From Tubiluchus corallicola (Eukaryota > Animalia > Priapulida): a DNA stretch of 64,000 bases. A program made the position numbers and the translations under genes. Positions 25,201-49,200 of the stretch are shown here, one piece after another (position 1 is the first letter of the stretch; each line of letters starts with the position of its first letter). The stretch is from NCBI GenBank assembly GCA_030141605.1, contig JAQGDQ010000336.1, positions 124,001 through 188,000 on the forward strand, in the 5' to 3' direction. The notes beneath the pieces are model-generated. The model was not told where the DNA came from. It saw nothing but the letters and a program-made list of their open reading frames with translations, and made no database searches.

Positions 25201-28200
25201 TTTTCTTGCAAGTTTTTTTTTTGCAAGTAATGACTCTTGTGCAATTTTGTGTTTACTCCTTAAGTGTTTTTATTACTCTTTTTTCTATATTTTTGTTGTA
25301 TTCACACCTTTGATGTCAGTTGTTGCTGCTATGGTGTGGTTATTTAATAAAACCTATTGGTTTATTTATGAAGTGCTCTATGCGTTTTCCATTTTCATTG
25401 CAAGCTAGACGAAGGCATTTCTTCCAACATAGAGTTGACATAGTTTATCACCTCTTTAAGTGGTATTTAGTCCCAGCACTCACTAAGTTTTGCTTTTATT
25501 TCCTTTGCATCAAACGGTTCTACGTGGCATCCGTACACTTTCTCTTTAAGGGAATTTCAGATACCATAGTCCAGTAGATATAGACAAATCCTTATCATCG
25601 CTTTTTCTGAGGTCAAGACCATGATGTAAACTGTAAAATTTCTTTATTGTTTTGTAGCTATGTAGTGAGTGCTTTATGCGTCTACAATCTCTGAATTGCT
25701 GGCATTGTTCCTGCTTTTAATTTTTTAACGTGTAAAAGTTTTTCGACCTTAACTTAAAAACTCTTAAAACTGTAAACTTGTAACTTTCGCAGCCCAAAGC
25801 CAACTGTACTGTAATATCATGCTGCGAAATTTCTGTTTTGCTTCTAATATTACTTTAGTCTAAACTTCGATCTCAATTTTTTGAGCCAACAGATAGATAG
25901 CGCAAGAAACGGAACCTTTTGCCAAATTTCTTCTATTTTGTGTTTTTCATTGCTTTGTTTCGCGGTTTTTCGGCGCTTAGTCCCTTAGTGATTCTGTTTT
26001 ATTTGTGTTACAGTAAAAGACAAAAATTTTGCACATTTTGTGTACTTTTCTGATTTTTTTTTATCTATTTCCACTTTTCTTTGTTGAAATCAGCTTTGGA
26101 AAACATGATTTTCAAGAATATTACGTGGTTAATATAAATAATATACAAACCCTACATCTATACTTGGTGTGGGGGGAACTTACCCTATTTATATTTAGGC
26201 GAATATTTCCTACTTATGTTTAATGATCGTGGAATAATTTACGACTCGTGTAAACTTGTTTAGTCTACTTCCTGATTATAGTGTTACCAGGTAAAGGTAT
26301 TCTTAGTGCACTCTTAACCTATTATCCCCATCATGATGACTAGTTCGTATTTTTAAATTTGTTTTGGAGTCACATTCGTTAATAATGGACGAATTTTTAA
26401 GAATGCTTTATAGGCCTTTCATGTAAGTGAGTAGTGACAGAATTAAGACAAATTTTGTGCTCCATTTGTGACATTTAGCTAATTAGCATATTAATACAAG
26501 TAGCAGGTTTAACTCTGGGAACAAATAATGTATAAAGAGGGGGAAAATTTATAAGTGTACAGGGTGTTAGAAAATTTCTACTCGTTGCACTTAAAAGTAA
26601 TCACAAATAGATATAAACCTTTTTAATGTTTTAATCATTGTAATAATTTTCGTTTAATATGTTTTTTAAATTCTTCCCACTCTTTATTGTCACAAATCAA
26701 ACATCGACGTGCTAAGTTCTTGAAGAAATGACTCGCGTACCTTCTTTGAGAAATCAACACAAACTACTTCTCTGTCCATTACCTTGCGAATTACTTTATA
26801 CTCAAAATTGAATGCTTTTTCTTATGTTTTTTACGCTTATCCCGATACCCTTTATTGTTAAGTGGCTTGTTGCTCTTAATATTTTGGAATTTATTTGTAT
26901 GGTTCTGAAGAATTTTTTTTTAAATTTATTTTTCAGATGACTCTGGTCGGCTACACAATTTTTGATATCCACGCTGCTGATAATGACTTTAGTTATCCAA
27001 ACAACTTTATTTATTTTGAAATTGAACAAGGACCATTTTCTGTGAGTGACTCATGTTTGAATTTGTTATTTTACTTAAAAACAATGGAAATTGAGAAGTA
27101 AATGAACATTAAGTTTTATTTTAATTACAACGTGAACTATTTTTAGCTGAACTTCTGTGTCTTTTTATATAATGAAATGATTAAAATTACTCAGTTAAAC
27201 CACTTCGTTAAACTATAAGTTTTTAATCCCCACTCATTTAAATCACCAGCATTGTATAATTAGCTTTTTAATAATTACATAGGACTATGTAGCCCTTCCC
27301 AACGAATACGAGGGGAAAATTGTTTTACGAAAACAGCTGGACTTTCGAGAATTTTCTTTTTTCTTCGTGACTGTCAAAGTCTTGGTAAGTTGTTGAATGA
27401 GAATTTGACAAGTTATGTAATTTTTATCTCACATAAATGCAATCTAAGAAGACAGTGGCTTTTGTTATTACATTCGAAGGTGTTTTATGTTGCTAAAGAT
27501 CAAGCATGTTAGATTGTGATAAAATATTGTCTGGCAATTTAGATAAAGCGTGCGCGCAGTAAGAGATTGCTAGCTTACGTATAACAATACATCAGAAGTG
27601 TGTCGCTCAAGGGCGCCGTTTTTGCTTAAAGCCCAAGAAAACCCTCCACTTATATAAAGCTTAAAAAATTCGTCTTGAAATTTTATATCATTTACTTACT
27701 GCCTTTTGCCGTGCAGGATTTGCATCGGCCGTAACGTCGTATAAAACTTGTAAATTTAAACTCCCGCCATGACCGTTAGGCGCAGTCATTTTAATGGTAG
27801 GTCGTTTGAATTAAGCTTAGAGAACATTGCGTGAAATTTGAACAAATAATCGGAACATTCGTAGCACACACGTCACTAACTAAATAAAATATTAAATTAC
27901 TGTATCGTGTCAATAAGATTAAAAATACGTTTTTGGTTAGTGAGTGGCGCACCCTGGAGGGTGAGTCAGCGACATTTTACCAATTGGTACGAACATTTTA
28001 AATTATTATTCTTAGTTACATAAGTCTTTTCAGCAGGTAAGCGAAATGTTAAGTAATATAGATTTGCATGGAAATTTTTTTTCGGACATAATTTAACATT
28101 GCCTTTCCTTTCCCTGATTTATGTTTGCACAGTGACGTCATGTAATGGCGTCATCGGAACAGTAATGCGGGAAATTTAAAATGAAAACACAAAAATTCCT

Positions 28201-31200
28201 TTCAACGCGTGTACGATATATGCATAAAATTGCTATGAAGTAGTATGAAGTAGAGAATTTTCCGAAACCTACTTCAGGTAACACTTTTCTTGGCCTTTAA
28301 CAGTCGAATGCAGTTTTGCCCAACAACATGGCGCTCATTGTTTGCCCAGCAGCAGAGCGTAGAAATTGTATTAGAAAATGTCGCCCATTGTTTGCTTCAT
28401 TTGCCTCACTTTCTGAGCGAGCCTAGTAAATTCTCTCTCTGAAGACGCATCTTATCTGTGCCACAAATACTGTTTATCATGCAGCGATCCAAGTTTCATA
28501 ATTGTTCAATGATTGTTACATTGTTGCTGTTTCATGTCTCACAACCCAAAATAGAATACATGTAAATGTATGTGTGGTTATATTGACCAAATTACACTTG
28601 CTGTGGTTTATCAGATGAACATCAAAACTCATGAAAACCACGTTAATATGGTAGCTAAATTTTGAACGAATTGGATATTGCAAATGTGTAACGCATCGAA
28701 ACATCTAAACTTTATTATAGGACTCAGGGAATCCAAGTTTATTTGACTCAGAGAATATCACCGTCTGGATCGTTGACGAGGATAATCTGAATCCCGTTTT
28801 CAGGGATACTGGTTATACGGCTGAGATGCTCCATACTTCTAATCCTGTAAGTTTGCGTTCAGTTCTGTAAACTGCAAAGAGTTGTTAGAAGATTAACTGA
28901 TCAAAGTTTCATGAATTGCAGAGTGTAGAGAAAACGTCTAACATTTAAGTATTGAGTTTTGAACCTACTTTGCAGAATATGGATTATAGATGTCGCCACT
29001 AGTACGGGTATATTGCTTTATAGTTTAGTGACTTTAATGGATAACAGTTCCGCACAGTATAGGCCTTATTACGAAGAATGGCACTAAATATCAATAATCG
29101 TAGTAAAAGCTCATATATGTTGTCTCTGATCTTGAATTGATTTCATTTTGTTATTATTATTTTTTACTATTATTTTTCTTTTTTGTTTTCTGTGAGTGTA
29201 AGATTTTAGTACAATTTAGCAAGCCGGTCCTCAGCACACAAACAGTGAGACCTTATGTAATAATAAAATTAATATCTAATTACTTTAATTTAGTACTTGT
29301 TTGTCACATAGAAAGTTAATTTTTTTTAAACAATTTTAACTTTAAATAAACTTGATTTTGTTTTAAGGGTATGCAATTGTTGGTGAAACCTAGACCAATA
29401 TTAGCTGAAGACCAGGACAAAGGCGTCATGAGCCCCATTACGTATACTATCGAATACGGTAATTAATATGATTAGCCAAATTCTAATTCTAATAAATTCT
29501 ATTATAAAGATTAACATATATTTAAGAATAATGTTGTCTTAATAAGATTATCAAAAAAATAAAAATAAAACGAAAAGCATAAATATATAGACGGCGCTGC
29601 TTATTATTCATTGCAAATTATTTTTTGGTGGCTTTAACGTATTTTCTCGCAGGTTTACTTGTTCTGTATAATACCCACTGTCTTTCTATTAATCTAACCG
29701 CTTCAAAAAATCAAAATATGCGATTCCATACATTTATAAATTTAATAGGTTTATTTAAAAAAATTCGAAGCACCAGATTTCAGACAAGACCACGAGAATT
29801 TTACAGACGCATACAAAACCACAGGAAGCTTAAGAAGACGGTATGGTGTTGAGCTCTTAATTACAATTATGGAGATAGTGTGGCTTGATTTCAAGTGAAG
29901 AAAACCTAAAGCACAGGAAAACCCTCCACTTACATAAAGCTTTAAAAAATTCTCTCGAAATTTTACACCATTTACATACTGCTTTTTTGCGTGTAAAAAT
30001 GTAAATTTGAACTCCCGCGATGACCGTTAGGCGCAGCCATTTTCATGGTAGTTTAGACAACACTGCATGAAGTTTGGAAATATAATTAGAACATTCGTAG
30101 CATACATGTTGCTAACTAAGTAAAATTTTAATTACTGTATCTCAACAAGATTAAAAATACGTTTTTGGCTAGTGAGGGGCGCACCATGGAGAGTGAGTCA
30201 GCGACATTTTATCATTTGGCTCAAACTTTTTAAATTATTATTTCTAATTACCTAAATCTTTCCAGCAGGTAAGCGAAATGCTAAGTAATATAGATTTGCA
30301 TGGAATGTTTTTTTGGGACGTAATTTAATATTGATTTACGTTTGCGTAGATGACATCATGTTATGGCGAGGTCCGAACAGTCTTGCAGGCATTTAAAATG
30401 GAAACAAACAAAAATTCCTTTCAACGCGAGTACAATATATGCATAAAATTGCTGTAAAATAGTATAATTTTTTTAAGGCGATTTTTCTGAAACCTACTTC
30501 AGGTAACCCTTTTCTTGTCCTTTAAGAACACATGTAGGAAACAGCAGAATATGGCATTATAGACAAAGCATTAATACTTCTAGGCGATGCTGGTTACTTC
30601 ATAATAAACAACAGTACAGCTGATGTGTTCTTGAGCAAACCAGTGAAAATAGGAATGCAGTTTGCGATGCTAATCAAGGCAACAGAATTGTACAACGGAG
30701 ACCACTACGCCAGCACGTCACTGACGGTCAAAGTTAGACGGCAAAACGAAAATAAACCTCAGTTTGATCAGTTGCATTATAAAGTCAGCGTGATGGAGAA
30801 TGTACCAATAGGAAGTACAGTATTACGAGTATCAGCTCATGATGCTGATCAGGTATGTATTCAATTTGAACAGGTAAAAAAGTAACAGGTAAAAATTCAC
30901 AGGAAAAAAGTCACAGGGAAATCGGCACAGGAAACAAAGAAATTTCCCTAACCCTACTATAATGCTGACCGTAATATTCCGATCATATTGTACTAAGTTC
31001 TACTGTTCTTGTCTACGGAAGAAATTTAATCTGTACAATATTCGTAAACTTAGATCTACGTATAATACTGCTGTTAAAATTTTTTTAATTATGAATATGG
31101 CACTAGGACTTCGTATTCTACATTTTACTGTAATAAGAAGAAAACCTGCACATAGTATCAGATGTATCGGGTCAAGAATCAACGAAAAAAGTGATAATTT

Positions 31201-34200
31201 CATTAATAATGGTTTTATTAATGTATCTGACGTACGATGTAAGCCAAACATCCTGTTGCACTGGTCGCAGGTGCTTTTATCAAGCTCAATTATATAACCT
31301 CTGCGTATACAATAACTTTTACTTTGTATATAATGTTTTACCCTAATATTTAATTTTATGTAATTTTTTTAGTTATAGGTTTTTAACATTGTGTGCTATA
31401 GTTTAAATTTTATTGTATGTGTGTATGTGGCTTTTAGCTGAAATAAACTGATAAGTCAATCAATCAACCTAACCCCTAACCCTAACACTAACCCTAGTCA
31501 AAATTAATTGTAACTTTTTACTGTAACATTTTCCTAGCCGAAATGGTGACTTTTTTCCTGCAATTTTTATCATAACCAAATCATATTCACAGTGTTTAAT
31601 AAGATTTTATGCTACATGGAGTGATCTACAAGTTTTAGACCAATGTCTGCATGAATTATATGAGTAAATCAGCACGGGCACGCACTCGCACATATGTAAG
31701 CCTGTTAAATGTCAGCCCAATATTAATTTGTTGTATGTTGGCATGTCCGACTGTTCTTGTCTTTAAAATGATAACTAAAATGTTCTTAACTTCTTATTTA
31801 TTCTATACAGCTTTAAATATTTCCGCAAGCTTGCATCACAAATTATTTTTCGCGTTTCTTTCTTAGTTTATTCATGCACGTGGTGTCTTGCATTTGACCT
31901 TTCTAAAGCTTTAAAGGCCGTTAATCTTGCTTTTACTTTATAGGACCCTACGATGAAATTGATGTACAGCATAATTGAGGGGAATCAAGCGGACGATTTC
32001 AAAATGAACGATGAGTACGGCTAAACAATAGCATTTCTAAATGTTGTTATTTAAAATCCATGCATTCTATGTGACTTAGTAGTTTCAGCGAGTTTGTAAA
32101 TAGCCTAGAACTAGTTCCACACGAATGCAACCACGCACGCATATCAAATTTGAAAAAATGTATTAGTGTCAACGATTATAGGACATTTTTCAGTAATAAA
32201 GAAACTGTTGTTGAATTAAGAAAATTCAAGTACAGATTTTTTTTAAGGAAGTAACTTATGAAATTGTAATTATTTTTAACAGGAATTTTGTTTTTATTTT
32301 ACAGTGGGTTGCTTTTGATAAATCACAAACTACAATATACCAGGACTTCAGAATATTGGCTGACAGCTCGTGTCACCGATGGAAAATTTGTGAGTATTCG
32401 GCATTTCTTTTCTTTATTTTGATAGCATTAGTGAGGACAACAATGACGCCATTGTGTGGCTAAGGTGCATACGCATGCATCTCAGGTAAACTACTCATAG
32501 ACCATAGACAAAGCAGATTGACTACTTAATCGATCAGATTCAGAACTTATAATAAGTATTATAATAAGTAATAAATATGATTTATTGATCAAACATTGGC
32601 ACTATAATTGGTAGTTTTTTGATGTATTGTGGTCAGTAACCTTTAGCTATTTTCTTACATGAGTTTCATTTATTTTAACTCATAGCTAGTAGTTCACTAA
32701 TAGGAGCTGTTAATTTGATTTAATTAGTTCCTCCCGCAACATTTCTCTTCCAGACTGATTAGGAGTTGAAAAAAGTTATTTCAGAATCGTGTACCAAATG
32801 CTGTTAATTTTTATACTTTCAGAGCGATGAAGCCACAGTGAGAGTAGTAGTTGTCAACACGAATAACCAGAATCCCGTCTTTCAAGCAGCTGCATTTAAT
32901 TTTGAGGCAGAGAGATATGAGGACACTTTTGTTGGTCAAATAATGGCGTCTGATCCTTCTGGACAACGTTTAACGTATAAAGTTTTAGGATATGATAAGT
33001 AAGTTAAAACTTAACTTTAGGATTCTGTTGATAATTTTATCAGTTAATATAGGCCTAAGTTCATAATCACGTAGGCATAATCTGCCGTTTTGGAGCATGC
33101 GGCAGATACCGTACCGATACGCCAGGAGGTACGTTTTATGTGGCAGTGTACGGACTACGAAGTGTTTCTAGTGGCGTTTGCTTAAGAAGGAGGTGTCGCA
33201 AAAATCTCACATTTAATGCCACGCATTACTCGCATGTACCGGTCCCGCTTATTCTGGATGCATGTGTATGCGCCATAAAAATGAGTATGGATTATTTATG
33301 TGTCTCATGCAATTGTAACTAATAACCCTAAGAATAAGATGCCAAACTAAAAGAGGCTTTGTTTTTGGTGACAGATGTAAAATTATATCTTAATTATCCA
33401 AGTGTATCTAGCCAAGGTATTTTTTAGTTTTATATCACTATTGACTCTTATTTTGCATGTGTTCCTTGTAACATCCTGGAATTATAGCTTTGTCTTTTCT
33501 GATGGTTAAGTTTTTCGAATTTTCTGTCTTCTGCAATAAATTGTAACACTATATAGTACGCTATTACTCTTTTGTAATGTTAAGTTGAAGTTACTTTAAA
33601 CTAATAACAAGCAGAGGAGAGGTTTACATTACAAAGTACATTAGTCACAGTAAAGGGTGGTGCATAATCTCATGCTAGAGGGTAGAAAAACAACAGGAAA
33701 CAGCATTAATTTATTTATTACATCAATGTATTGCTGAATTTGTATTCTGTAAAGAATTTGTCATGCCTTCGAAATTTAGTGTGAGGTTTTTGCACAGTGG
33801 CAACCTGAAGGGTGACTTGAAAATTCTGAAATTATTTTTTGGATTGAATTAAATGGCTTGGAAATTCACTAGATCCCCATCTGCCAATACATTGTAGCTA
33901 CCCCAAAATACAGAAAGAATGCTAAAATGATAAATCACCTATGTTTGAGTAATATTTTGATGTAATAAATTGTCCTCTACTACTCGTTGTTTTTGTACCC
34001 CCTCCCCCAGCAAAATGTGCCAGCCTGTACCTTGGCGTAATGATGTCTTCTGTGCTAAATTGTACAATAATTGTCGGCATTATAATCTTGTTTTTTTGTT
34101 TAAGATATTTCACAATAACAAACAAAGGACAGTTGTACACTACAAAGTACACTAAAGAGTTAAAGCACAGTGAATATCATTTGACCGTGAAAGCGTGTAA

Positions 34201-37200
34201 TGAGGAGGTGCTAGAACTAGCAGAGGAGCAGCGGTGTTCAGTTGCCCTTGTCACTGTTAATCTACCTCAAATTTTACCAAGTAAGTAAGGAGTACCAAAG
34301 AAAGTCGTGGGTGATGTCTGATAATTAATGCGCAAGAGTAGTTTTATGTATTGTTGTTTTAAAGCCAATTCAGTTCTACATTTCAAGCCGTATAAAAATA
34401 ATCATCTAAGCAGTTTACCGATAATTATATTAACTGATAAAAAGTAATAGCATCTATTAATTTTTTCAGTTTTTGAGTGGTCACAAACTAGCTCCATTTA
34501 GACATGCGGCAATTGTAAGCACTTAGGAAACAGCTTACCTTTTATTAGGTTCAGAGAAGTTTTATAAAGTTGATGTTTTCAGGACAACTAACAACAACAA
34601 TCCGCCAATTTAAGATGACAGAGAAAAATAGAAACTGAAATGAAGTGAATGATGTACTATATGTTGTATATAGCTAATTATGTTGTATTCGCTCCCCTAA
34701 TTCTAACAAGGTGCACTAAAAATAATTCAATATACAATAAAGAATGTATTTCTTAAAAAATTATTTGAACATTTTAAAGTAATATATATAATGGTCGTAA
34801 ATAATTATTGTTTTAAGGTGCAATTATTGTACGATGAGTCTCATACCTATTAAATATTATAGATTATCTTTATTATTATATTACGAAAACCAAAACGGCA
34901 TAGTCATAATTGTATTGATAGCGGTATCGAAAGCACGCAATAATAGACAATTAACATAATAGTGATGGCACTTCTGTAAAATTGTAATGAAGATGAATTT
35001 TCATTAAAATACGTTTCACTAACATAATTTTTCAATGGACCTACTTCAGAGTTCTAATAAAATGTCACAAGAAATAGTATTGAACTACATTATTGTTTAC
35101 ACTCAATTTATACTATTACGTAATTATTTAAGAATTGTATCTTGGATAAAGATGAGAAAAGCTTGAATTCTAGTGTAGAAACTGTACTTATCGCGCGCGC
35201 ATAACGATCCACCTCCACTCACAATCCCATACTGCACATATCGTTTTCCTTCTGCCCGTACTAGTGGACCACCACTGTCACCTCTACAAGCGTCAGCACG
35301 TCTGTCATCAAATCCTGCACACATTTGCGTATCACCCATAATCTCGTATGGTTTAAATACTCGTTGGCATTCTGAGTGTTCCACTATTGGTAAATTGGCT
35401 TCCAGTAATTCCGGAGATGGTGGTTGTTTGCCGTTGGCAGTGACACCCCATCCCGTGACTGTTAACTGCTCACCTGGGCTTGGAGGCCTACTCCTGCCTG
35501 AAGGAAGACAAATTGTTCTTGCGCATTTTCCAATTTCCACCAAGCCATTAAGTTTTATCAACGCTAAGTCATTGTATAATTGTTCATCAAATGAGGGATT
35601 TGAGACAAGCCTTTCAACATTGAAAAACTGAGCATTAGCTTCGTTTGCATCTCTTGCACTCTTATGTTTTCCAATGCCAACTTCAAGATCTGAAGCCAGA
35701 AGAAGACGACCCGTGGAACGCACCACCACACAGTGTGCTGCCGTCAACACCCAGTTTTCAGAAATTAATGAGCCACCACATCTAAATGCACCTCTATGAT
35801 AAAGTGCCACTTGCCAAGGCCATTCACAAGGAACTGTAAAATTGCCACCAAGAATTGTCCTCCTAATTGAAGGATCTTTTGTTCCACACTCTGGGACACA
35901 ACGTGGGACTTGGTTAACATTGCTCCATTGTCCGTCTGAACCACATGAGGCTGTAGAGCTTCCTTGGATTATATATCCAAATTCACAGCTATATTGTGCT
36001 TGTGTGCCAGGCGGGTACCAACCAGCCGGTAAGCTGCTGGGATTTACACCAGGACCAAAAGCAATTGAAGTACTCGAGGCTTTTCTTACTAAACGTGGGG
36101 GTTCCCCACAGGCAATTTCTGAAGCCGGTTCTTCACATGCATCTCCTTTGTATGCTCCCACACAGAAACAATCAAATTTCCCTTGCAATAACTGTCTGCA
36201 TATTCCTCCATTTTTGCAAGGATTTTGAATGCAAGGGTTAAGCTCTTTGCTTTCACAATTATTTCCAATGTACCCTTTTGGGCACAGGCATGTATAAGAT
36301 GAGACGGAAGCTTCGCACAGGCCTCCATTCTTGCATGGAGCACTTAGACAAGGACTTATCTGTCTGTCACAGTTACGACCAGTAAAGCCATTTTCACACT
36401 GACATTCATAATTTTGAACAAGGTTTCTGCATGTTCCTCCATTCCTACAAGGCTCGCTAGAACAAAAATCTGATTCACAGTTGTCTCCAGTAAATCCAGG
36501 TCTGCAAAGACAGATGTAGGTAGACTCAGAAATTGTCAGACACAAGCCCTGATTCAAGCATGGATTATTCTTAGGGGAGCAAATGGCTTCGTCAACAACT
36601 TGCATTTCAGTTTGACACCTTTCTCCCACAAACTTGTCTGTACATTCACATAACAATTGGGCATCTTCTGATCGGCATATTCCGCCGTTCAAACACGGTG
36701 ACGAATCACAAACATTTGCCTGAGGCATTTCCGTCTCACATTCTGTTCCTGTGTACATAGCAGGACAAGAGCACTTAAAGTTATCTCCAAAATTTTGACA
36801 CGAGCCGCCATTTTGGCAAGGGAGACTGGCACAGAAGTCACGGCCATTTTCACAGAGACTACCAGTGTGTGTGACGGTGCAAATACAGATGAAGCTATTC
36901 GTGAGGGTTATACAGGATCCACCATTTCTACAAGGAGACGAGGCACAAAAATCTTTTGTTTGGTCACAGCGAGGACCACTAAAAGAAGATAGACAGTTAC
37001 AAATGAAGCTACTATTACCATTTACGCACGATCCACCATTTCTGCAAGGAAAAGAGGCACAGAAGTTTGGCAGTTGACGCCGCACCTCACAAAGACCTCC
37101 TGCATAATCCAAAGGACAGTCACACGTAAAACTTGATCCAGAATTTTTGCAGGATCCTCCATTTTGGCATGGTGCAGATTGGCAAGGATCCTGTCGTCTC

Positions 37201-40200
37201 TTTTGACAGATGGCCCCAGAGTATGGTGAAGGACAGTCACAAGCAAAGCCCAGAGCTGAACTAGGAGCTTCTAGACAAGTTCCACCATTCAAACATGGTG
37301 CTAGTCGGCACAAGTTTTGCTGGTCGTTCATTTCACAGTTAGTTCCTGTATAAAAGGATGGACAATTACAGACGAAACTTTCATCTACCGATATGCACGT
37401 ACCTCCATTCAAACATGGGTTCCCACCACATGGATCGAAAGGTTTGATTTCACATGTACTACCTGCGTAACCTCCAACACAACTGCACGTGAAAAACCTC
37501 CCATTAGAAAAACATTCTCCTCCATTTTTACAAGGGGCCGAAGCACATGCTGAAATTTCCTGACATCGACGACCTGAATAGAGTCCTGAGCACAAGCATC
37601 TGTACCGCCCAGGTGCTGTTTCTCTGCACGTACCCCCATTGAGACAAGGCGAACTTGAACACACATCATTTATTTCACACAGTGTTCCAGTAAGTCCAGG
37701 TAGACAAGAACACGTGTAAACGGTTGTATCGCCAATCTGGGAACATGTTGCGCCGTTTTTGCATGGATTTGGTGCACAGGCATCTTTCTTGTCACATGTG
37801 TTACCTGTATATCCACTGGGACAAAAACATGAATAAGTCCCTGAAGCCAGATCAATACATGTTCCCCCATTCAAACAAGGCGATGACTCGCATCCTATTA
37901 TTTGAACAGTAGCTGCAAACGAATTGCATTCAATTCCCAGAAGAAATTCAAGTTGCTTGCACAGTTCTGGATCGTTCCTAATTTGTTCTTGGATGTCTAT
38001 TTGCGCTGAGACTCCACAAGCGAAAAGTAAAAGAATTTGGCACGCGGTGAACATACTGCCAGCAACAGCGACACGCCACTCCTTGCACTGCAGAGCCGGA
38101 AAATAGGTTGTATAGGCAAGACAGCAACAAATAATCCAAATGTACAGGCTGTGAAAGTCGTGATGATGAAGTTACTGCAATGTACGGCACCCATTCAAGC
38201 CTAACGAATTGGAAAATGCTTTCCGGGAAAAACTGTAATCACTTGTTAACTAGACGGCCTAATGGCCTTTTTGTGATGTAAATTCGGTGACCACTGTCCA
38301 GTTTCAATAACCTGCAGATTTTGTCCCTAATAAAACTTTACTACGTGAATATAATAAAATATGTACAGTTAGCACTAGTGTAAGAAGGAAAGTTATTTTT
38401 AATATTAATACAGGATATAACACTACCGGATAAATATGCTATTTGTGTTTAAAATCAAACTTACGGAGTAATGGGTGAACGCCAATATCTCTAAACTTAC
38501 GATACATTGTATTGTCAGCTTTTTCTATTTCTAGTCGGAGCTCAAGTTCAGTTAAATAGTTAGTGATACAAATAGTCTTAATAACTGCATACACGTGCAA
38601 AGAGCTTTGATTTTTAACCCTGGGACGTGATTGAAAAAGTTTTTTTCGTGTTAATTTTGCCCATTTATCAATAAAATATAGACGCAGTATGGTATATAAA
38701 GAGCAAAGTTGCACCAAACATGAAAGAAATTGGCGGAATAAACCCGAATGGAATGAAATGTTGGGATTGAAATTAGATAAAACTAGACGCTTCCAATTGC
38801 CTGTCGAATGAATTGACCATGACCATGACAAAATAAATGGGGTTGAGCAGTATAGTGGTCATGCAATTCGATTTATAAGCAAAAGGTTCTAACCAGGCTC
38901 AGTCTCGAGTTTTTCACCTGTCCTTCTTTTCGGAAAGTTTGGATTCAAAATCCAATAACTGTGAGTTAATCCCATTATTAATCAGTAATTTTGAAATTAA
39001 GATTGTGAATAATAAGCTGAGGGAATTACAAAAGTCAAATTAACATTTATTTTTCAAATGCGTGATAGTTGATACCAATTTTTTGTTGCTACTGTTGGTA
39101 CCAATGGCGACTGTTCTATGTCACAATTGTCGCCATAGTTGTTGTCTTCACCAATTAACTCTTTGTATTATTTTATTTTAGATACGGTGAAAGCTGATGG
39201 TGTTGAACAGACGAGCCTGATTATTGCTTTAGCTGTCATTGCCAGTATTATGCTAATTACGATAATAATTATGGCAGTTATGTTACTTAAGCAGTAAGTA
39301 TAAGCAGAGAGGTGTCATTGTCTACAGTAATACCTCTCTGGTATAAGTCATAAATATCGAAAATTTGTTTTATAGTATGTGATTTTTACGTTAATAAAAC
39401 TCACGGGAGAAACCTATGGTACACTAACCTGGTAATCTATTTGTAACAGGACTGAAACTGTCAGAAATCTTTATATGATTGTCGTTAATATAAGGTTATG
39501 CGATTATCCATTTTTAAAGTAAACCTCGATATGTATTTCTTTAATTGTTTGTGTCTCACTCAGGGCCTATTTCAGGGGGGGAAGTGGGGATACTTCCCCG
39601 GGACCTCACCCTCCGGGGGGCTGGCGCCGAGGTAACATTTTTTTTGCTTTATGCGAACATTCAATTGTTCTTTTTCTTTCCTTTAACAGCTGTATAACTC
39701 CATATTTTCTCTTCGAAAATGCTTCTCCAGCATTCGAGCAGTTCAAAAATTTTCTGGGCGCCAACCATGGTGGCACCCGACCCACCCCCCGAGGGGGCCT
39801 CACACGCCCCACTTCCCCGGGCCTCGCTTTGGCTGACATAGGCCCTGGTCTCACTACTTTGAACATTTAATCATTTTCATTTAGTCATTTGTACTTCCTA
39901 TTTCAAAAGAGCACAAACCAACAATAAAAAGCAGACAAGATTTGATTAAAATGTGGCCACAATAAATACATCATTATTTCATTCAAGGAACACTCATCAC
40001 AAATTTCACAAATATAAAGCGTTAGTTTAATAAATGTTTACTTACATACTACCACTTACACGAATAGCATAATTATTACAAGTAGCACTATGCACTAAAG
40101 CACAATAATCACCTTATGAAGCAAAATAGGTGCACCATCATATTAACTATAATTCAGCACTACAGGCCTATATAGGGGGACTTGCTCTATTAACCAGTGA

Positions 40201-43200
40201 AAGCTAAGAGAGTCGTTCTCGTTGCTCATGTCGAGCGGCCTTATATAAACTTTTCCTTCATAAATTAGTCTAAATAGTGGGCTTCATGCAAGTCGTTCTC
40301 GTTGCTCATGTCGAGCGGCCTTATATAAACTTTTCCTTCATAAATTAGTCTAAATAGTGGGCTTCATGCAATGCATACATGCATACTTGTATGGTCTGAA
40401 ACTACCTACAGACCTATTCTAAGGGCAAATCTAAGTTTAACATTCAAGGCTATATTATAAGACTGTAGTTAAAGGAAAATTCACTAAGTAAGAAAAAAAT
40501 ACTAGAGAATTTAGGGGGAATTTTATAGACACATAAAATTAAATTTATCTTCGGGAAATATATATGCGATTTCCCGACACTCCCGAAATCAAAAAGAGAA
40601 AGTGATCATAGGGATGCTAAAAATTTCTGCAAGTACAGACAAAAATTCTTATTTCCAATACTAGATGCAACTAGAGATTAAAGTATGTGATCAATTGCAA
40701 ACAGTAGTAATCAACTAAATTGTCATACAAATCAAATAAATCATCAACAAGACAAATCAAATGACAATGCACGGGCATAATTGGGTTAGTAGCATAAAAG
40801 TGTAAACAAGTAACAAATGGTGTATAATACGATGAGGATACATGGTGATATTTTTGAGTTTCCTGTTGTAATCGTTTTCTTTATGTTTTCTTCTTTCATG
40901 GACCGTTTTAAATCTCCAGTAAAAAGTATTTTATCAGGAACATAGTCCGTCCACTAAACGCTTGAGTACTGGATCAAGTTAAGAAAGTATAAACCGTAAA
41001 CTTGGTGAACCAACAACCAGCAAACCGTTAGATGGAAAATGTGCGCACAATGAACGGTACTTGGAGGTGAAGAAACTGCTGGAACCATATGAGGAATATA
41101 TCACCCTTTGATTAGATGACATCTTCATCAATCATCTGCTGCAATAACTGGCGAGCCTTCTTTGCTGACTGACGCTGAGGTCGTGAAGTACTGGTGCTAG
41201 GAGTGTCACATGACTTGATGACATCATCGGTTGATTTATTTGCACCTACAAATGAAGCAGCATTACTGTTCGTGGAAGAACAAGAAGGGTCATGCACAGT
41301 TTTAGATGTTAAGTCTACGTTATTGCATTGATGATTGTTATGATCAATGTACTCTAAAGGATAAAGATGATTTATGTTTCTGATTAGTTTAGTACCATTA
41401 ACTAAAACACAAACAGAACGAATATGTCCATCAGCACTAGGTTTTAGCTCTAATATTTTCCTGTATCGCCATTGTCCACGGGTAACGTTGTCGTCCACAA
41501 GGACAACATCGCCTACATGGGGAATGACTGATAGAGTTACCTTCTCTTGTTTAATAAAAGTTTGATGACGCTCATGAAGACTAGAAAGGTATTCTGATCG
41601 CCAGATGTCCCAAAAACGTCCGAGGTAAAATTGACCTTTCTTCCAAACATTGAGTAAATTCCTTGCTGAAACTTTCTTACCAGTAAGGAAGTCCTGAACG
41701 TCATAATCGAAATCAGGTATAGATTCAATAACCTGCAAGTTGATAAGATGGGATGGTGTAAGAGCAACAGATGAATTAATATCTGTATCCACATAGACAA
41801 TGGGACTATTATTAATCATAGACTCTACCTGTGTAATTAAAGTAGTTAGCTGCACAGGTGTTAAGGGGCGACTAGCTATAGTCTTTCTAAGCGCCTTTTT
41901 AACCAAACTGTTCAGACGTTCATACACTCCACCTGTCCAAGCTGCCTTTGGTGTTATAAAATGCCATTCTACCCCTTTAGAAGTAACTGAGTCTACTACA
42001 GCATTCTCAAAGATGTAATTAATAGTTTCATGAGCTAGTTTAAATGATGAAAAATTATCAGAGAGAATAAACTTTGGAAGCTCACGCCTAGCAAAAAATC
42101 TTTGCAGACAAAGTAAAAATGTTCTGCTGTCAGATTGTGGACTAACTCTAAGTGGACTCCACGGGTGACAAAACATGTAAAGAGACAAATCCATGCCTTC
42201 TCGAACACGGTGTTACCCTCTCTAAAAATCTTTACCCTTACTGGCCCGAGGTAGTCGAGTCCACAACACAAAAAGGGTTTAGTGACTTTTATCCGTAATA
42301 AAGGAAGGTCCGCCATTTTAGGTAAGGCGTAAGGACTTCCATCAATTCTACGACATGATTGACATTCAGACAAAACCCGGCGGGTGACAACACGCCCACT
42401 GGGAATCCAATATTTTTGACGCACTAACGCGAGTGTCTGAGATGGGCCAGTATGTAAATTAATAACATGAACATGTCTTACCACTAATTTTGTGAATTCA
42501 TGATCCTTAGGTAAGAGGATAGGCCTCTGAGAACCATAAGTAACTAGGTTACCTAAGCGTCCTGTACATCGAATAATACCATCCTCATCTATGATGAGAC
42601 CTAAATTTTTCATATTCCTCAGCTGCTCAGGAGTGAAAGAGCGCTGTGCCTGCCTCACCCATGATAAAGTTGACTCTTCCAAGTCAGCAGCAGAGACACG
42701 TGCCCTAACGGGAAGATTACGAAACCGTTTCACAGCTTTAAAGACGTAACACGTCGTTCGAAGCAACCTGAGAAGAGAAGAGAACTTATTAACTGATATG
42801 ACAGTAAGATCACATGTTACATTATCTGTAGCACTAAGAACAGATTCAAAAGCAATCATTTCTTTGGACTCTTTAGTTTTGACCTCTGCCTCTATCTGCT
42901 CTAATTGCAAAGATGTAAGAGGAGGCAAATCACAAGTAGGCCATTCCGTTTTTTCAGAAAGCGAAAATTCAGGCCCATGAAACCAACTTTCAGATAACGG
43001 ACCAGAATTTGGCCTGGTAGCACAATCAGCAATGTTCTGCTCAGCTGGTACATAGCGTAAGGAAAAATTGTCAAAACTACGTATTTCTACTACTCTGTTG
43101 TGCACAAACGTAGTAAGAGGTTTACTAGACTTTAACCAGTATAATACGCACAAAGAGTCAGTAAACAGTGTACATGCTACAGTATTTAACTTAAGTTCTT

Positions 43201-46200
43201 GACGAGCATAGTTAACAGCCCGAGCGCCAACTAAAACTCCAAGAAGTTCTAAGCGTGGAATGCTGACATTCTTAGGAACGAGGCGAGTCTTTGAAAAGAC
43301 CAAATCCACTCTAACTTGCCCATCATGAAGTACCTGGCGTAGAAAGACAACACAAGCATAAGCATACATAGAAGCATTAGTAAAACACAACAGATCAAAT
43401 AAAATATCATCATCCACATTAGTACAAATACAAAGGGGTATATGCAAAGAAAAATGGTATACGAACGATCAGCAATCAATTTCCATTGTTCTAAATGATG
43501 CTCACTAAGTGGCTGGTCCCAGCCATACTTTTCTACCCAAAGTTGAGCTAAAAACAACTTTGCATCAAGGGTAAGCGGAGATACATAACCACAGGGGTCA
43601 AACAGACTCGTAACTTGTTTTAATATCTCACGTTTAGTGGAACAATTGTGCATACTTACATCAATCTTGTGCGAAATAGACAATGTGTCATCCTTGGTGT
43701 TCCATTTTAATCCTAATACTTTAATTTCTGAGGATGCAATTTTATCTTCCTCAGGAAGAGAAGCAACAAACTCTAGGTTATTAGAACCCCATTCCCTCAA
43801 ATTCACAGATGCCGTGGAAAACAGATCTTTAGCTAATTTGTAGAAGGAAATGGCTTCATCAGTTGTGGCAACACCAGTTATGATGTTGTCAACATACATG
43901 TTAGCTAGAATGCGACTCGCAATGGGTATCTTACCAGACATTTTACTAAGATGATGCTGGACAGTACCTGCTAGCATCCATGGGCTACTCAGAATGCCAA
44001 ACGGACAGCGAGTAAAGCGAAATATTTGCAAGTTACCAGTAGGATCAGTGTTACCTATATCCTTTAACCAAAGAAAACGTGTGACGTCTCGATCAGGCTC
44101 ATGTAAACCAACTGCAAGGAAGGCCTTCTCAATGTCACAAACTAATCCGTACTCGTGCATCCTGGAACGAAGTAGTACACCACATAAGTCGGGCATTAGA
44201 ACAGGACCGCGGTATAAGCAGTCATTTAGGGATGGACTAGATTTATTCACCTTAGCAGAGGCATTATAAACTATTCTTAATTTAGTGCTAGCTCTCTGGG
44301 GGGTGATAACTGGGTGATGAGGAATATAATGAATAGTTTTACCTGTAACGGTATCTTCGGTAACAGGCTCAATGATACCTTTTTCTAACTGATCCTGTAT
44401 GACACTGTCATATTTCTCCAAGAGCTGTGGTTGTTTAACTAAACGACGCAAACAAGATTTTAATTGGCCTAGTGAAAGTGCAAAAATATCAGGAAGTATA
44501 TCTTGTTTACATTGCCAAGGCCATGATACGTAATAGCGGCCGTCACGATACTCAACAGTATTATCAAAATTCTTTTTGGCTTCTAAATCTCCAGCACTTG
44601 TTGGGCAGTCAGAAATTCCCAACAAGTCTAAACCGCAAAATCGGTTTACATCCAAATTAATGTCATGTTTATTTACTTGATACAGATGATCAAAGGCTGC
44701 TAATGATGTTTCTAAGGTGTGTTTCTCCAAAGTAACTAAACCATCAGTTGTAATACCTGGTTCTATGCAAAGTAATCCAGCTCTGTGCTCAGGGGCTATT
44801 CTTGAAATTTGGATATGTTCCTCCTAAGACGTATCCTAAACATGTTGCAAAAAGATATAAACCAGGTCTAATTTCTTCTTTAAATGGCAAAAGAGTTTGG
44901 AAGTAGTAATCATTACCAATTAACAAATCTGTGGTATTGACATGATGGTTTGGATTACAATAGTCATCGGCTAAGCTATAGCCGTAAGTACATTCTAGGA
45001 AATCAGCTATTTCACGTGGCAAAGGTTCACGCAATGTAGGGGAAGATATGCATTCAGCCACGCGGACTACTAACGGTAGATACAAATTTTCTTTAGTAAT
45101 CAAATTAACACGTGTTGTAAAGCACGGTACCCTAGATAAGGTATGACTGCCAAAAGTAGCAAATTGTAAAAACTCACATTTAGTTGGCTTAATGCCTAAT
45201 TGTATAGCTAAACGTGTAGTTATATAAGAACAAGCACTTCCTGAATCAAGCGTTGCATTAACTTGAACCCGTTGATTAGTAACAGGATTACTTACAATAC
45301 AAGAAGCAGTTTGCATACATACGCTCTCCGAGTTTGAATACAGAGCCTTTTCTGAAATAGCTTATGTAGTTGGAAATCAAAGAGAAACTTCTTTAAACAA
45401 AGACTTCGGTGATGACCTGATCGGCTACAATGGACACAAACACGTGAAGACTTACAGTTAAGTGCATAATGGTTAATGCTTAAACACTTAAGGCACCTAC
45501 CAGCTAAAAGTGCTTTACGAGCAGCAAGAGTAGAATGAACAGTACATTCATCGCTATAATGCTGGTTTGATTTACAAAATGTGCAAAGAATTTTCCTACC
45601 AGAAGCGTTATTGGGCTTTTGCCGTGACTGAGGTGCTACCTTCTTAGGCTGATCCACAGCTTGCAGTACACTCTCACCTCGAGAAACACTCTGTGATTTG
45701 GAATAATCAGGCTTACGGTTGAAATGATCTGGCTTCCGAAGAGGACGAAGTGAAGAAGCTTCTTCTTCAACAGCTTCCAAGTTACCAACATAATTCTGCA
45801 AACGGTCACGAAGCTCTTCGGTGGTCCAAATAGCGGAATCGAATAGCTGCAAGCACAGATTTAGGTAAGCGGCTAGTTATTAGTGGAACTGCCATATAAT
45901 CATCTATTTTTCTACCAGCACATTCTATAAAACGCAAATGGACTTCAAGCCTATCTAGAAAACTGCACAAGTTTTTAGCACCTTCACCAACACGTTCTAA
46001 AGAAGACAGAGCTTTGTAATGTCTATCAAGCAAAACATCTTTATTACCAAAGCGCTGTTGAAGCACTGACAAAACAGTAGGATAATTCTCTTTTGCAAAT
46101 TACGTAACCATCTATAGAACGAGCTGCTGCACCAGTAAGTTTCAACTTAAGATGCTGAAATTTTTCCACGTCACTTAAATCTGGGTTGTTATGGATAGCG

Positions 46201-49200
46201 CTACAAAAAATCTGCCAAAAAGATGGCCACTGCAAAGCATCCCCACTAAAACTTTTGATTTCTAATTTAGGGACTTTACAATGTACTTTACCGTGTGCAT
46301 GTGTGCAAGAATTTTGAAACATTACCTGTGATACATTAGAGGCTGTAGGTGTGGAAGCAGGAGGTGAATGATGTGAATGAGATGATTCGTCAAGTCCATG
46401 AAGTTCCGTCATAACATCTAACTGTGCTATAAGTCGGTTGACTTCATCAGCCAAGTAAAGATTCTCATCAATATACTCATTAGTTTTTTGCATAAGTTCA
46501 GCAGGGTCATGAGACTGCAAGGCTTGGTCATTAAGTGTTTCAACACGGCGAAGTTTCTCAGATAAAGAAGATTTTATTGCCCGCACTTTGCTGGTAATAG
46601 ATAGAGGGTCTTTGTTAATGGCCTGAGAAGATAATTTGGAAAGATCTTCAGCTGTTTTTAAGTCTTTGCGCATCGCGCTACATGTTTTACTCGAACAAGA
46701 ATGGTAGAAGCCAAACGAGTAGCCGCAGCTGAGATTTAGTCTGTTTGAGAATTTTTGGACTGGCACCTTTCTGTTCGCCATATTTAAAAGAATCGACCTC
46801 AAGTTTGCCATAGGAAATTGGCTGAAGAGCAGGAAGGCCAATATCATCATCTGAATCAGTTGCATTGGAAGAAACTGCATCATGCTCCGGCTGGTTTGTT
46901 GGCTTAACTGGCTGAGCCGCATCGCCACAGTTCTTAGCAGTTTTAACGTCAAGGTCAACTATCTGAGTCTCTTCGTCTGCCGAGGTATCAGATTCAACGC
47001 GTTTTGCATACCCAGGGGATTTCATGATTTTCTTGGCCTGGCTACGGGTTCGAATAGGTGATTGCTCTGACATTCTGAAAAAAGGCTGTTCGTCAACATG
47101 CAAAAATTCTGTAAATCAATATCAAATATACAAATCAGCATCAACACAACAAACTGTTAGCAAACAAGCAAAACTTCCGAAAAACTGAGCAACAACAGTT
47201 CTTCAGGCTTAGCTAATCTAAATCCAGACCATACGGATAACAAATCTTTGTACTATTATCAAACTTCTAATTTAGAAACAAGTGATTTACAGGAAGCACA
47301 AAAAAGTAAATTAGAACAATTTGCAAAATTGCAGAGCCGACACTTTCAGCACCATATCGAAAATTTGTTTTATAGTATGTGATTTTTACGTTAATAAAAC
47401 TCAGGGGAAAAACCTATGGTACACTAACCTGGTAATCTATTTGTAACAGGACTGAAACTGTCAGAAATCTTTTTATGATTGTCGTTAATATAGGGTTATG
47501 CGATTATCCTTTTAAAGTAAACCTTGATATGCATTTCTTTAATTGTTTGTGTCTCACTCAGGGCCTATTTCAGGGGGGGGGAAGTGGGGATACTTCCCCG
47601 GGACCTCACCCTCGGGGGGGGGGGGGGGGCTGGCGCCGAGGTAACATTTTTTTGCTTTATGCGAACATTCAATTGTTCTTTTTCTTTCCTTTAACAGCTG
47701 TATAACTCCATATTTTCTCTTCGAAAATGCTTCTCCGGCATTCGAGCAGTTCAAAAATTTTCTGGCCGCCAACCATGGTGGCGCCAGCCCCACCCCCCAA
47801 GGGGGCCTCACACGCCCCACTTCCCCGGGCCTCACTTAGGCTGAAATAGGCCCTGGTCTCACTACTTTGAACATTTAATCATTTCCATTTAGTCATTCGT
47901 ACTTCCTACTTCAAAAGAGCACAAACCAACAATAAAAAGCAGACAAGATTTGATTAAAATGTGGCCACAATAAAATACATCATTATTTCATTCAAGGAAC
48001 ACTCATCACAAATTTCACAAATATAAAGCGTTAGTTTAATAAATGTTTACTTACATACTACCATTTACACGAACAGCATAATTATTACAAGTAGTACAAT
48101 AATCACCTTATGAAGCACAATATAAATTCAATTTAGGTGCACCATAATATTAACTATAATTTAGCACTATAGGCCTATATAGGGGACTTGCTCTATTAGC
48201 CAGTGAAAGCTAATAAGAGAGTCGTTCTCGTTGCTCATGTCGAGCGGCCTTATATAAACTTTTCCTTCATAAATTAGTCTAAATAGTGGGCTTCATGCAA
48301 TGCATACATGCATACTTGTATGGTCTGAAACTACCTACAGGCCTATTCTATGGGCAAATCTAAGTTTAACATTCAAGGCTATATTATAAGACTGTAGTTA
48401 AGAAAAAATGCTAGAGAATTTAGGCGTGGGGACTTTATAGACACATGAAATTAAATTTATCTTCGGGAAATATATATGCGATTTCCCGACAATAAATATT
48501 TTATAAACTTTTCCTAAATATTTCATAAGTATTATCTAAACAAAAACAACGTCATTAAAATAGTGTCAAGTAATGTTGATTGAATGTTATGTTGAAGAAT
48601 GTATACTAACTATGTCATGAAATTAGCCAATTTCTTTCATCTTGATGAAGTATGTGCAGGCGTATAACACCAAGTTTTGTTCATAATTCAGTCAGCTGCA
48701 AGTGTTGACAAGTGTTTCACAATGAACACAATATCTAAAATATTGTTCTGCTGCATAGAAAAGCTTTTGTGTGAGCTGTATAATCATTGTGAGTACTGGT
48801 TTTTGAGCTGGATGTTGCACGGTGCTGCCATCTGGCAACGAAAATACTACGAAAACAATTTACAATTCCTTTAAGGCCAAATAGGTAGAATTAATAAAAA
48901 TATCCAAAGACAGTGACTGCCCGACCTTAAAATTTTTTTGAATTTGAATTCGCGCAGTTCCATACTGGACAGAGGTTTCTAATAGAAGTTTTTAGTAACA
49001 ACTGATTTATTTTGTGTCAACTCTCTCGCTGGTATAGCTTAAATCTGGGCCGGGTTTCAGCCTAATGGTCCCTGGTTCAAATCCTGTCCCAACAGCTTCA
49101 CTATTCCATTTTTTTCGGTTATTTAGGCCTCTAAGTTTCGTATAATAGTCCTGTGTATGTAACCTCCTTTGTATGATCCTGCTTATTGAGACTACTGAGG

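What the first reader, a model, noticed from the sequence alone, without database searches (positions are those of the whole stretch)
35124..38054. Intact intronless 15xEGF-CCP-trypsin protease gene nested antisense inside a cadherin intron
Seen: a 2.9-kb single-exon ORF with no stops or frameshifts lies on the opposite strand, inside the intron between the last ectodomain exon and the TM exon. The host gene's own exons are only 66-296 nt. Known: EGF-array genes normally have phase-1 introns between repeats, and a CCP directly before a trypsin domain is the hallmark of the MASP/C1r/C1s/Limulus factor C group. I do not recognise a named protein that combines a long Notch-like EGF stalk with a single CCP and a protease. 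Inference: this is a lineage-specific, possibly retroposed, innate-immune, clotting or matrix protease with a new architecture, kept intact by selection.
Basis: partly seen in the sequence, partly recalled or inferred. Interest (0 to 1): 0.75.

Follow-up and report, generated by a model that had tools for sequence, protein, structure and literature searches.

The report
EGF-stalk protease nested in cadherin intron
A gene with an intact, intron-free coding region lies backwards inside a cadherin intron and encodes a predicted secreted protease on a stalk of 15 EGF repeats; its only family match found is an unstudied priapulid-worm protein, and it likely triggers an extracellular defence or clotting cascade as horseshoe-crab factor C does.

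Summary
A 976-codon ORF (38054-35124, minus strand) encodes a signal peptide, a short two-Cys cap, 15 EGF repeats, one CCP and a trypsin domain with an intact triad. A spliced contig from a probable RNA run joins six cadherin exons across intron 34281-39181, which proves the nesting. Variants in related runs are mostly synonymous, and the same RNA run holds pieces of the gene and of a paralog-like copy.

The architecture is not unique. Priapulus caudatus XP_014674105.1, misnamed Notch2-like, has 7 EGF-CCP-trypsin, is 46% identical over CCP plus protease, and forms a 100/99 clade with the query. I found no third member. Unreviewed notes call this genome a probable priapulid, so the family is likely priapulid-restricted.

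The nearest named kin are Limulus factor C and ModSP (tree 90/89, MASP grouping not rejected). They share a non-basic activation site and, with factor C, a lengthened last CCP. It lacks factor C's LPS-binding, LCCL and lectin modules, so it is not a member. Retroposition is unproven, and antisense nesting is common.

Verdict: new variant of a known kind, interest 0.38.

The parts
35124..38054 (-). Protease coding sequence, 976 aa plus stop, no intron in the coding region
38004..38054 (-). Predicted signal peptide (aa 1-17, likely cut after VSA)
   Evidence: N-terminal hydropathy peak 2.5 and no other strongly hydrophobic segment; no dedicated predictor was run
37893..38003 (-). Short N-terminal cap with two Cys (aa 18-54), no Pfam family; a paralog-like RNA piece keeps it
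   Evidence: X6 record 10
36135..37892 (-). 15 tandem EGF repeats (aa 55-640); 0 of 15 have the calcium-binding consensus; 10 of 15 have an O-fucose and 10 of 15 an O-glucose consensus (consensus patterns recalled)
35898..36110 (-). Single CCP/sushi module (aa 649-719) with a lengthened Cys1-Cys2 loop (41 residues) ending in a factor C-like PxGxY motif
35850..35855 (-). Predicted zymogen activation bond Thr734-Ile735 (non-basic P1; Thr also in Priapulus)
35127..35852 (-). Trypsin-fold domain: His774, Asp829, Ser927 (AGT codon); Asp189, Gly215, Tyr225, Ser226 in chymotrypsin numbering; extra Cys743/Cys844 pair shared with Priapulus
34869..34874 (-). First AATAAA downstream of the stop, inside the host intron (candidate poly(A) signal)
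   Evidence: use not shown
34281..39181 (+). Host cadherin intron (GT..AG, 4901 nt) that contains the protease gene
   Evidence: spliced contig X6 record 25
34105..34280 (+). Host cadherin exon before the intron (last ectodomain exon)
39182..39293 (+). Host cadherin transmembrane exon
30699..32999 (+). Four further host cadherin exons seen spliced (30699-30850 partial, 31942-32014, 32305-32389, 32823-32999)

Best explanation
This is an intact, likely independently transcribed gene of a small, likely priapulid-restricted family of predicted secreted CCP-serine-protease zymogens related to factor C and ModSP, which likely acts as an upstream trigger of an extracellular defence, clotting or wound cascade. 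Shown: reading frame, domains, catalytic triad, antisense nesting, excess of synonymous change, and orthology-level kinship with a Priapulus protein. Inferred from family knowledge: the signal peptide exports it, and the CCP packs against the protease as in MASP CCP2-SP. Cleavage at Thr734-Ile735 would free the new N-terminus and form the active site, with the chains still tied by Cys723-Cys849. Asp189 predicts cutting after Arg/Lys, in a pocket altered by Ser226 and Gly215. Because P1 is non-basic, an ordinary trypsin-like upstream enzyme is unlikely to activate it. It would be switched on either by clustering-driven self-cleavage, as factor C is at Phe-Ile, or by a chymotrypsin- or elastase-like enzyme. 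The 15-EGF stalk stands where factor C has its LPS-binding, LCCL and lectin modules and would serve as a glycosylated spacer and docking rod. The nesting is likely an incidental insertion into a large intron, with no functional link to the cadherin.
For: ORF, domains and triad. Nesting by a spliced contig. Selection: of the 40 differences shown (of 87) in runs X5 and X6, 20 codons change synonymously and 13 do not, against 22% synonymous sites, p 2.4e-6; the ortholog-like RNA piece gives pN/pS between 0.06 and 0.21. RNA: 3 contigs of X6 lie on the ORF at 82-94% identity. Priapulus protein: 278 bits over CCP plus protease against 178 for the next best of 1025 domain hits, and the next nine rows are all factor C-like. 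Tree: query plus Priapulus 100/99, sister to factor C plus ModSP at 90/89 (92 in the 68-row quick tree). P1 is Thr here, Phe/Leu/Tyr/Ser in the factor C-like and ModSP-like rows, and Arg in all five MASP-like rows. The Cys1-Cys2 gap of the last CCP is 41 and 36 here, 69-87 in five factor C-like rows (36-37 in Centruroides) and 26-30 in MASP-like rows. Factor C's FI activation site and domain list come from PMC11836539 and PMC10672452 (passages).
Against: No activity, tissue or substrate data exist. The link to factor C plus ModSP is not a starred branch, and grouping with MASPs is not rejected (p-AU 0.223). The factor C plus ModSP clade (99/99) excludes the query. None of the known pattern-recognition modules is present, so nothing shows how it would sense a trigger. 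The RNA contigs are unstranded and come from a lineage about 8% diverged in the cadherin exons, so the ortholog-like piece could be host pre-mRNA. The priapulid identity rests on unreviewed notes plus my single homolog. The homolog searches scored only about 7,900 candidates each and were crowded by multi-domain proteases.
Confidence: 0.5

Rival explanations
1. It is a secreted matrix, cuticle/moulting, egg-coat or developmental protease. The EGF stalk tethers it in extracellular matrix and it has no immune role, despite its kinship.
For: No microbial-recognition module. Long non-calcium-binding EGF arrays are typical of matrix and signalling proteins (recalled). Drosophila nested genes are enriched for narrow, testis-biased expression (PMC3814207, passages).
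Against: The nearest named relatives are cascade initiators. The non-basic activation site and the Tyr225/AGY markers are those of regulatory cascade proteases (interpretation of the markers recalled).
Confidence: 0.3
2. It is an old protostome or bilaterian family, retained in scattered poorly sampled phyla, and the window is not from a priapulid.
For: Only 46% identity to the Priapulus protein and a different EGF count, 15 against at least 7. Factor C itself spans chelicerates and amphioxus. I could not test the taxon myself.
Against: No third member among the 150 best of 1.84 billion representatives or the 120 best down to 157 bits. Several notes on this genome name Priapulus as the closest relative (unreviewed).
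Confidence: 0.15
3. It is a young retrocopy of an intron-containing parent elsewhere in the genome, and the retroposition explains both the missing introns and the nesting.
For: The coding region of 2.9 kb has no intron while host exons are 73-177 nt. Paralog-like sequences at 82-86% identity exist in X5 and X6.
Against: No A-run of 8 or more in 2.1 kb downstream. The only flanking direct repeat (12 of 14 nt) lies upstream of the first AATAAA. The paralog-like pieces continue in frame past their aligned ends without a splice site (loose ends, read by eye), so they look intronless too. In Drosophila only 16.67% of young opposite-strand nested duplicates arose through RNA (PMC3814207, passage). 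An ancient intron loss followed by DNA duplication fits equally well.
Confidence: 0.2
4. It is a catalytically silent or never-activated protease homolog that works as a scaffold or decoy.
For: Thr at P1, Gly215 in place of Trp and Ser226 are unusual. Cleavage after Arg733 would leave a Thr at the N-terminus that may not insert (inference).
Against: The triad, Asp189, Asp194, the oxyanion Gly and all expected disulfide Cys are intact in both species. The model superposes on thrombin at Z 36, rmsd 2.1 over 251 residues.
Confidence: 0.1

Closest known systems
Priapulus caudatus XP_014674105.1 ('neurogenic locus notch homolog protein 2-like, partial'; predicted, uncharacterised)
   Same: EGF array-CCP-trypsin order; 46% identity over CCP plus protease; Thr at P1; extra Cys pair; small residue at 215 (Gly/Ala), Tyr225 and Ser/Thr226; a 4- then 6-residue linker near the end of the EGF array; 100/99 clade.
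   Different: At least 7 EGF repeats (the record is partial) against 15. Its exon structure and genomic position could not be seen.
Limulus clotting factor C family (chelicerates, amphioxus)
   Same: Best-scoring named CCP-protease units; lengthened last CCP with PxGxY/F motif; non-basic activation site; Asn-x-Ser/Thr just after it; Asp189 and Tyr225.
   Different: No Cys-rich RWR LPS site, LCCL, C-type lectin or multiple CCPs; 15 EGF in place of one; outside the 99/99 factor C plus ModSP clade (PMC10672452 and PMC11836539, passages).
Insect/crustacean modular serine protease (ModSP / HP14 / MSP) type
   Same: One CCP before the protease and a non-basic P1; neighbouring clade.
   Different: No LDLa repeats; a different CCP spacing (Cys gap 13-14 in the ModSP-like rows).
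MASP-1/2/3, C1r, C1s
   Same: CCP-SP fold, best Foldseek matches. The AGY Ser codon and single-exon protease domain recall MASP-2/3 and C1r/s (recalled).
   Different: No CUB-EGF-CUB, one CCP only, no Arg at P1, and the histidine-loop disulfide is kept. The tree prefers another place, but the grouping is not rejected.
Opposite-strand nested genes (Drosophila, human)
   Same: Independent gene inside a long intron on the opposite strand, probably unrelated in function to the host.
   Different: Nothing unusual: about 10% of fly genes are nested (PMC4394429, passage), and 37.41% of opposite-strand nested fly genes are single-exon (PMC3814207, passage).

Membership tests
Peptidase S1A, active type | His57/Asp102/Ser195 triad in a trypsin fold | tested here: met
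   His774, Asp829, Ser927; fold Z 36 to thrombin
Peptidase S1A, active type | Measured proteolytic activity | not testable with these tools
   needs recombinant protein
Limulus factor C | N-terminal Cys-rich region with the RWR LPS-binding tripeptide | tested here: not met
   no basic-aromatic-basic tripeptide in aa 1-60; the cap has only two Cys after the signal peptide
Limulus factor C | LCCL domain, C-type lectin domain and five CCP modules | tested here: not met
   Pfam finds LCCL and 4-5 Sushi in P0469 and P0480 but none of LCCL or lectin in the query; the query has one CCP
Limulus factor C | Protease domain inside the factor C clade | tested here: not met
   the factor C plus ModSP clade (99/99) excludes query plus Priapulus; sister position 90/89
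Limulus factor C | Activation at Phe-Ile; heavy/light chain cut at Arg-Ser | tested here: inconclusive
   Thr-Ile in place of Phe-Ile, non-basic like factor C; a dibasic RK in the CCP loop but no RS site
Limulus factor C | LPS-dependent autocatalytic activation | not testable with these tools
   bench test
MASP/C1r/C1s | CUB-EGF-CUB-CCP-CCP-SP architecture | tested here: not met
   no CUB, one CCP
MASP/C1r/C1s | Arg-Ile activation bond | tested here: not met
   P1 Thr, against Arg in 5 of 5 MASP-like rows
MASP/C1r/C1s | Protease-domain clade | tested here: inconclusive
   not recovered in the free tree; not rejected, p-AU 0.223
ModSP/HP14 | N-terminal LDLa repeats | tested here: not met
   none found by Pfam
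ModSP/HP14 | Single CCP before the protease with a non-basic P1 | tested here: met
Retrogene | Intronless coding region | tested here: met
Retrogene | Intron-containing parent gene | not testable with these tools
   no whole genome is held for this window
Retrogene | Poly(A) remnant and target-site duplication | tested here: inconclusive
   none found, but such marks decay in old copies
Nested antisense gene | Whole coding region inside a spliced intron of another gene on the opposite strand | tested here: met

The most novel reading that the evidence does not exclude
Priapulids keep a third lineage of cascade-initiating proteases, sister to factor C and ModSP, in which a Notch-like glycosylated 15-EGF rod and a small two-Cys cap replace all known pattern-recognition modules. 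The zymogen self-activates at a Thr-Ile bond when the rods are clustered on a microbial or wound surface, and the family spread as intronless copies into introns of unrelated genes.
Probability: 0.17. Interest if true: 0.62.

Novelty: new variant of a known kind. Interest (0 to 1): 0.38.

Why it matters
Priapulids are a slowly evolving ecdysozoan outgroup to arthropods. A CCP-protease lineage next to factor C and ModSP would help show how the initiator proteases of arthropod clotting and Toll activation arose by swapping N-terminal modules on one CCP-protease unit. It also corrects a database misnomer (a 'Notch2-like' record that is a protease) and gives a testable Thr-Ile zymogen. The nesting and the lack of introns are of little interest in themselves. 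Domain shuffling among S1A proteases is common, so a specialist would find this a neat new architecture, not a surprise.

Tried and rejected
No whole genome is held, so parent-gene, paralog and synteny searches in the own assembly were impossible. The exact protein is not in the collection.

Word-based homolog searches with the query's C-terminal part and with the two-sequence profile returned almost only multi-domain trypsins. The Priapulus protein scores 278 bits, just under one search's cut-off of 287, so one search is no evidence of absence. The metagenome scan gave 79 loci at 28-39% identity and no family member; the best, L001, is a MASP-type protein. The ESM Atlas gave only generic EGF/CCP-trypsin clusters.

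No RNA holder was listed by the run search; X6 came in only by species label. The lack of X6 cover on non-coding intron DNA was not used as a control, because introns diverge faster. The first fold, with two sequences, failed (pLDDT 36.7). EGF-by-EGF scoring did not give a one-to-one register with Priapulus; only the linker pattern agrees, and 4-residue linkers make up 120 of 2740 linkers in other arrays.

Rejected: artefact or chance ORF, pseudogene, Notch/Crumbs fragment (signal peptide and protease are in one frame, no transmembrane segment), and an exon of the host (opposite strand, spliced out). Rfam found nothing in the window.

Literature searches for this architecture gave 0 papers; two searches gave 0; one search gave 3 papers (2 listed, both versions of one Lineus study); one search gave 1 unrelated review; one search gave 5 (4 listed), none describing MReM architecture. 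I could not compare the protein with MReMs in detail, and most subscription papers are not in the library. No earlier finding of this scan matched by sequence, words or nearby place.
Full report
OBSERVATION. The reading frame at 38054-35124 on the minus strand is open for 976 codons. It holds an N-terminal hydrophobic stretch, a 37-residue cap with two Cys and no Pfam family, 15 six-Cys EGF repeats, one CCP and a trypsin domain. Pfam missed the CCP in the whole protein but scores it at 36.2 bits (cut-off 20.7) when scanned alone. A model of CCP plus protease built on a 31-row alignment (pLDDT 85.9) matches MASP-1 CCP2-SP fragments first in Foldseek and superposes on thrombin at Z 36, rmsd 2.1. 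The triad His774/Asp829/Ser927 and Asp189 are intact. Positions 215, 225 and 226 are Gly, Tyr and Ser, and Ser195 and Ser214 use AGT codons.

NESTING. A 774-nt contig of run X6 lies on six separate window pieces with GT/AG borders that read as one cadherin frame ending in a transmembrane helix. It skips 34281-39181, which contains the whole ORF and the first downstream AATAAA. The splicing shows that X6 contains cDNA. 'Single exon' is shown for the coding region only; a possible acceptor lies 33 nt upstream of the ATG.

SELECTION AND EXPRESSION. Runs X5 and X6 carry the same species label as the best holder, but X6 differs by 65 of 774 nt in the cadherin exons, so they come from a diverged lineage. 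One search showed 40 of 87 differences in the ORF, chosen by depth. By codon, 20 are synonymous and 13 are not, against 22% synonymous sites (p 2.4e-6). For the ortholog-like RNA piece (94% identity, 9 of 12 differences shown) pN/pS lies between 0.06 and 0.21. No stop or indel was listed. Four differences in X3 split 2 and 2. Caveats: the likeness filter favours conserved pieces, and orthologs and paralogs are pooled in the first count. X6 has three contigs on the ORF at depths 37-53, against 162 for the cadherin contig. With only 13 million letters of contigs in the run, genomic contamination is unlikely (inference), but the strand is unknown.

PARALOGS. Two of the three X6 pieces are only 82-83% identical. 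X5 holds two different sequences over 36211-36265, and one of them shares most variants with the X6 piece. Their loose ends, read by eye, continue as a different signal peptide, cap and EGF in frame. This points to at least one further family member, probably also without introns at those places. An internal EGF duplication could explain the EGF piece alone.

RELATIVES. A full HMMER scan of 1.84 billion representatives listed 150 proteins. Of 269 proteins held at that point, only one besides the query had an EGF array followed by a protease with both catalytic motifs: Priapulus caudatus XP_014674105.1, named Notch2-like and partial. It has 7 EGF, a CCP and a protease (its CCP is seen by alignment, Pfam does not list it) and is 46% identical over CCP plus protease. 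It scores 278 bits where the next of 1025 domain hits scores 178. It shares Thr at P1 and an extra Cys pair found in only 3 proteins among 244 pattern-matched protease domains: the query, Priapulus and one dinoflagellate protein. P0219 has a trypsin-like domain in front of 13 EGF and a vWA domain, a different order. A search with the Priapulus protein (120 listed of 545 hits, down to 157 bits, lengths 354-1127) found no third member; the best single CCP-protease units were factor C proteins. These searches score about 7,900 candidates each, so absence is not proven. Earlier unreviewed notes on this genome repeatedly call it a probable priapulid. I could not test that, but it fits the single homolog and moved my reading from an old cross-phylum family to a likely priapulid-restricted one.

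PHYLOGENY. A quick tree of 68 protease domains gave query plus Priapulus 99 and a join to factor C plus ModSP at 92. I then dropped 35 redundant or long-branch rows and ran a careful tree on 33: query plus Priapulus 100/99; factor C plus ModSP 99/99, excluding them; the two together against the rest 90/89, not starred. Forcing the pair into one clade with five MASP-like rows was not rejected (p-AU 0.223). Discrete characters side with factor C: non-basic P1, a lengthened last CCP with a PxGxY motif, and Asn-x-Ser/Thr after the activation site. The defining factor C modules are absent: RWR site, LCCL, lectin and five CCPs (PMC10672452 and PMC11836539, passages). So it is built like a factor C/ModSP-type initiator at its catalytic end but is not a member of factor C, ModSP or MASP.

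MECHANISM. The most likely reading (0.5) is a secreted zymogen opened at Thr734-Ile735, held together by Cys723-Cys849, and cutting after Arg/Lys. The non-basic P1 argues against activation by an ordinary trypsin-like enzyme and for clustering-driven self-activation or a chymotrypsin- or elastase-like activator. The EGF rod (0 of 15 calcium-binding consensus, 10 of 15 O-fucose consensus; patterns recalled) would act as spacer and docking arm. An upstream role in a defence, clotting or wound cascade is inferred from kinship alone. A matrix or developmental role (0.3) and a silent scaffold (0.1) remain open.

ORIGIN. The coding region has no intron, but no poly(A) remnant or convincing target-site duplication was found and no parent could be sought. 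In Drosophila 37.41% of opposite-strand nested genes are single-exon, and only 16.67% of young opposite-strand nested duplicates arose through RNA (PMC3814207, passages). About 10% of fly genes are nested (PMC4394429, passage). The nesting is therefore ordinary, and retroposition is possible but unshown.

LITERATURE SEEN. Passages only of PMC10672452, PMC11836539, PMC9835746, PMC4394429 and PMC3814207; no supplements were opened, and a supplementary gene table could list this protein unseen. Searches for the architecture found no paper; subscription literature, including the MReM paper, was out of reach. Recalled without a call: the AGY/Tyr225 markers, the single-exon protease domains of MASP-2/3 and C1r/s, ModSP biology, and the glycosylation consensus patterns.

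VERDICT. The feature is real. It is an undescribed architecture already present as a misnamed Priapulus prediction: a new variant of a known kind, interest 0.38.

Noticed in passing
window 39354-48491: A BEL/Pao LTR retrotransposon on the minus strand (gag-like, protease, RT, integrase in several frameshifted ORFs, 41112-47115) with direct repeats of about 1.1-1.2 kb, 90-92% identical (39354-40579 and 47354-48491), sits in the host intron right after the transmembrane exon.
   Followed up: partly
window 39523-39870 and 47436-47878: A very high-copy GC-rich element with inverted arms lies inside both long direct repeats (summed depth 180,000-410,000 in X1 at the first copy); probably a MITE-like repeat.
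   Followed up: no
window 24653-24871, 29356-29463, 49640-49750, 50132-50426, 51565-51658: Further likely host cadherin exons: two upstream with cadherin motifs and three cytoplasmic-tail exons, the last ending in a TIYF C-terminus that looks like a PDZ-binding end. The host family was not identified.
   Followed up: partly
window 27627-28300, 29907-30525, 62106-62454: Three copies of a high-copy dispersed repeat, 70-77% alike, one inverted.
   Followed up: no
window 35344-35677 and 37682-38015: Summed contig depth in the same-species run X1 rises to 258 and 333 against about 200 elsewhere in the ORF, a weak hint of a paralog in this species too.
   Followed up: partly
runs X5, X6 on window 30699-39293: Runs with the same species label differ from the window by about 8% in coding exons, which suggests a cryptic species or deep population split.
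   Followed up: no
L001:162-2267: A complete intron-free MASP-type ORF (CUB-EGF-CUB-CCP-CCP-protease by eye, 701 aa) in a metagenome-collection contig, probably an animal transcript; used as an outgroup.
   Followed up: partly
protein P0219: An unnamed 1172-aa protein with a trypsin-like domain followed by 13 EGF and a vWA domain, an independent EGF-array protease architecture.
   Followed up: no
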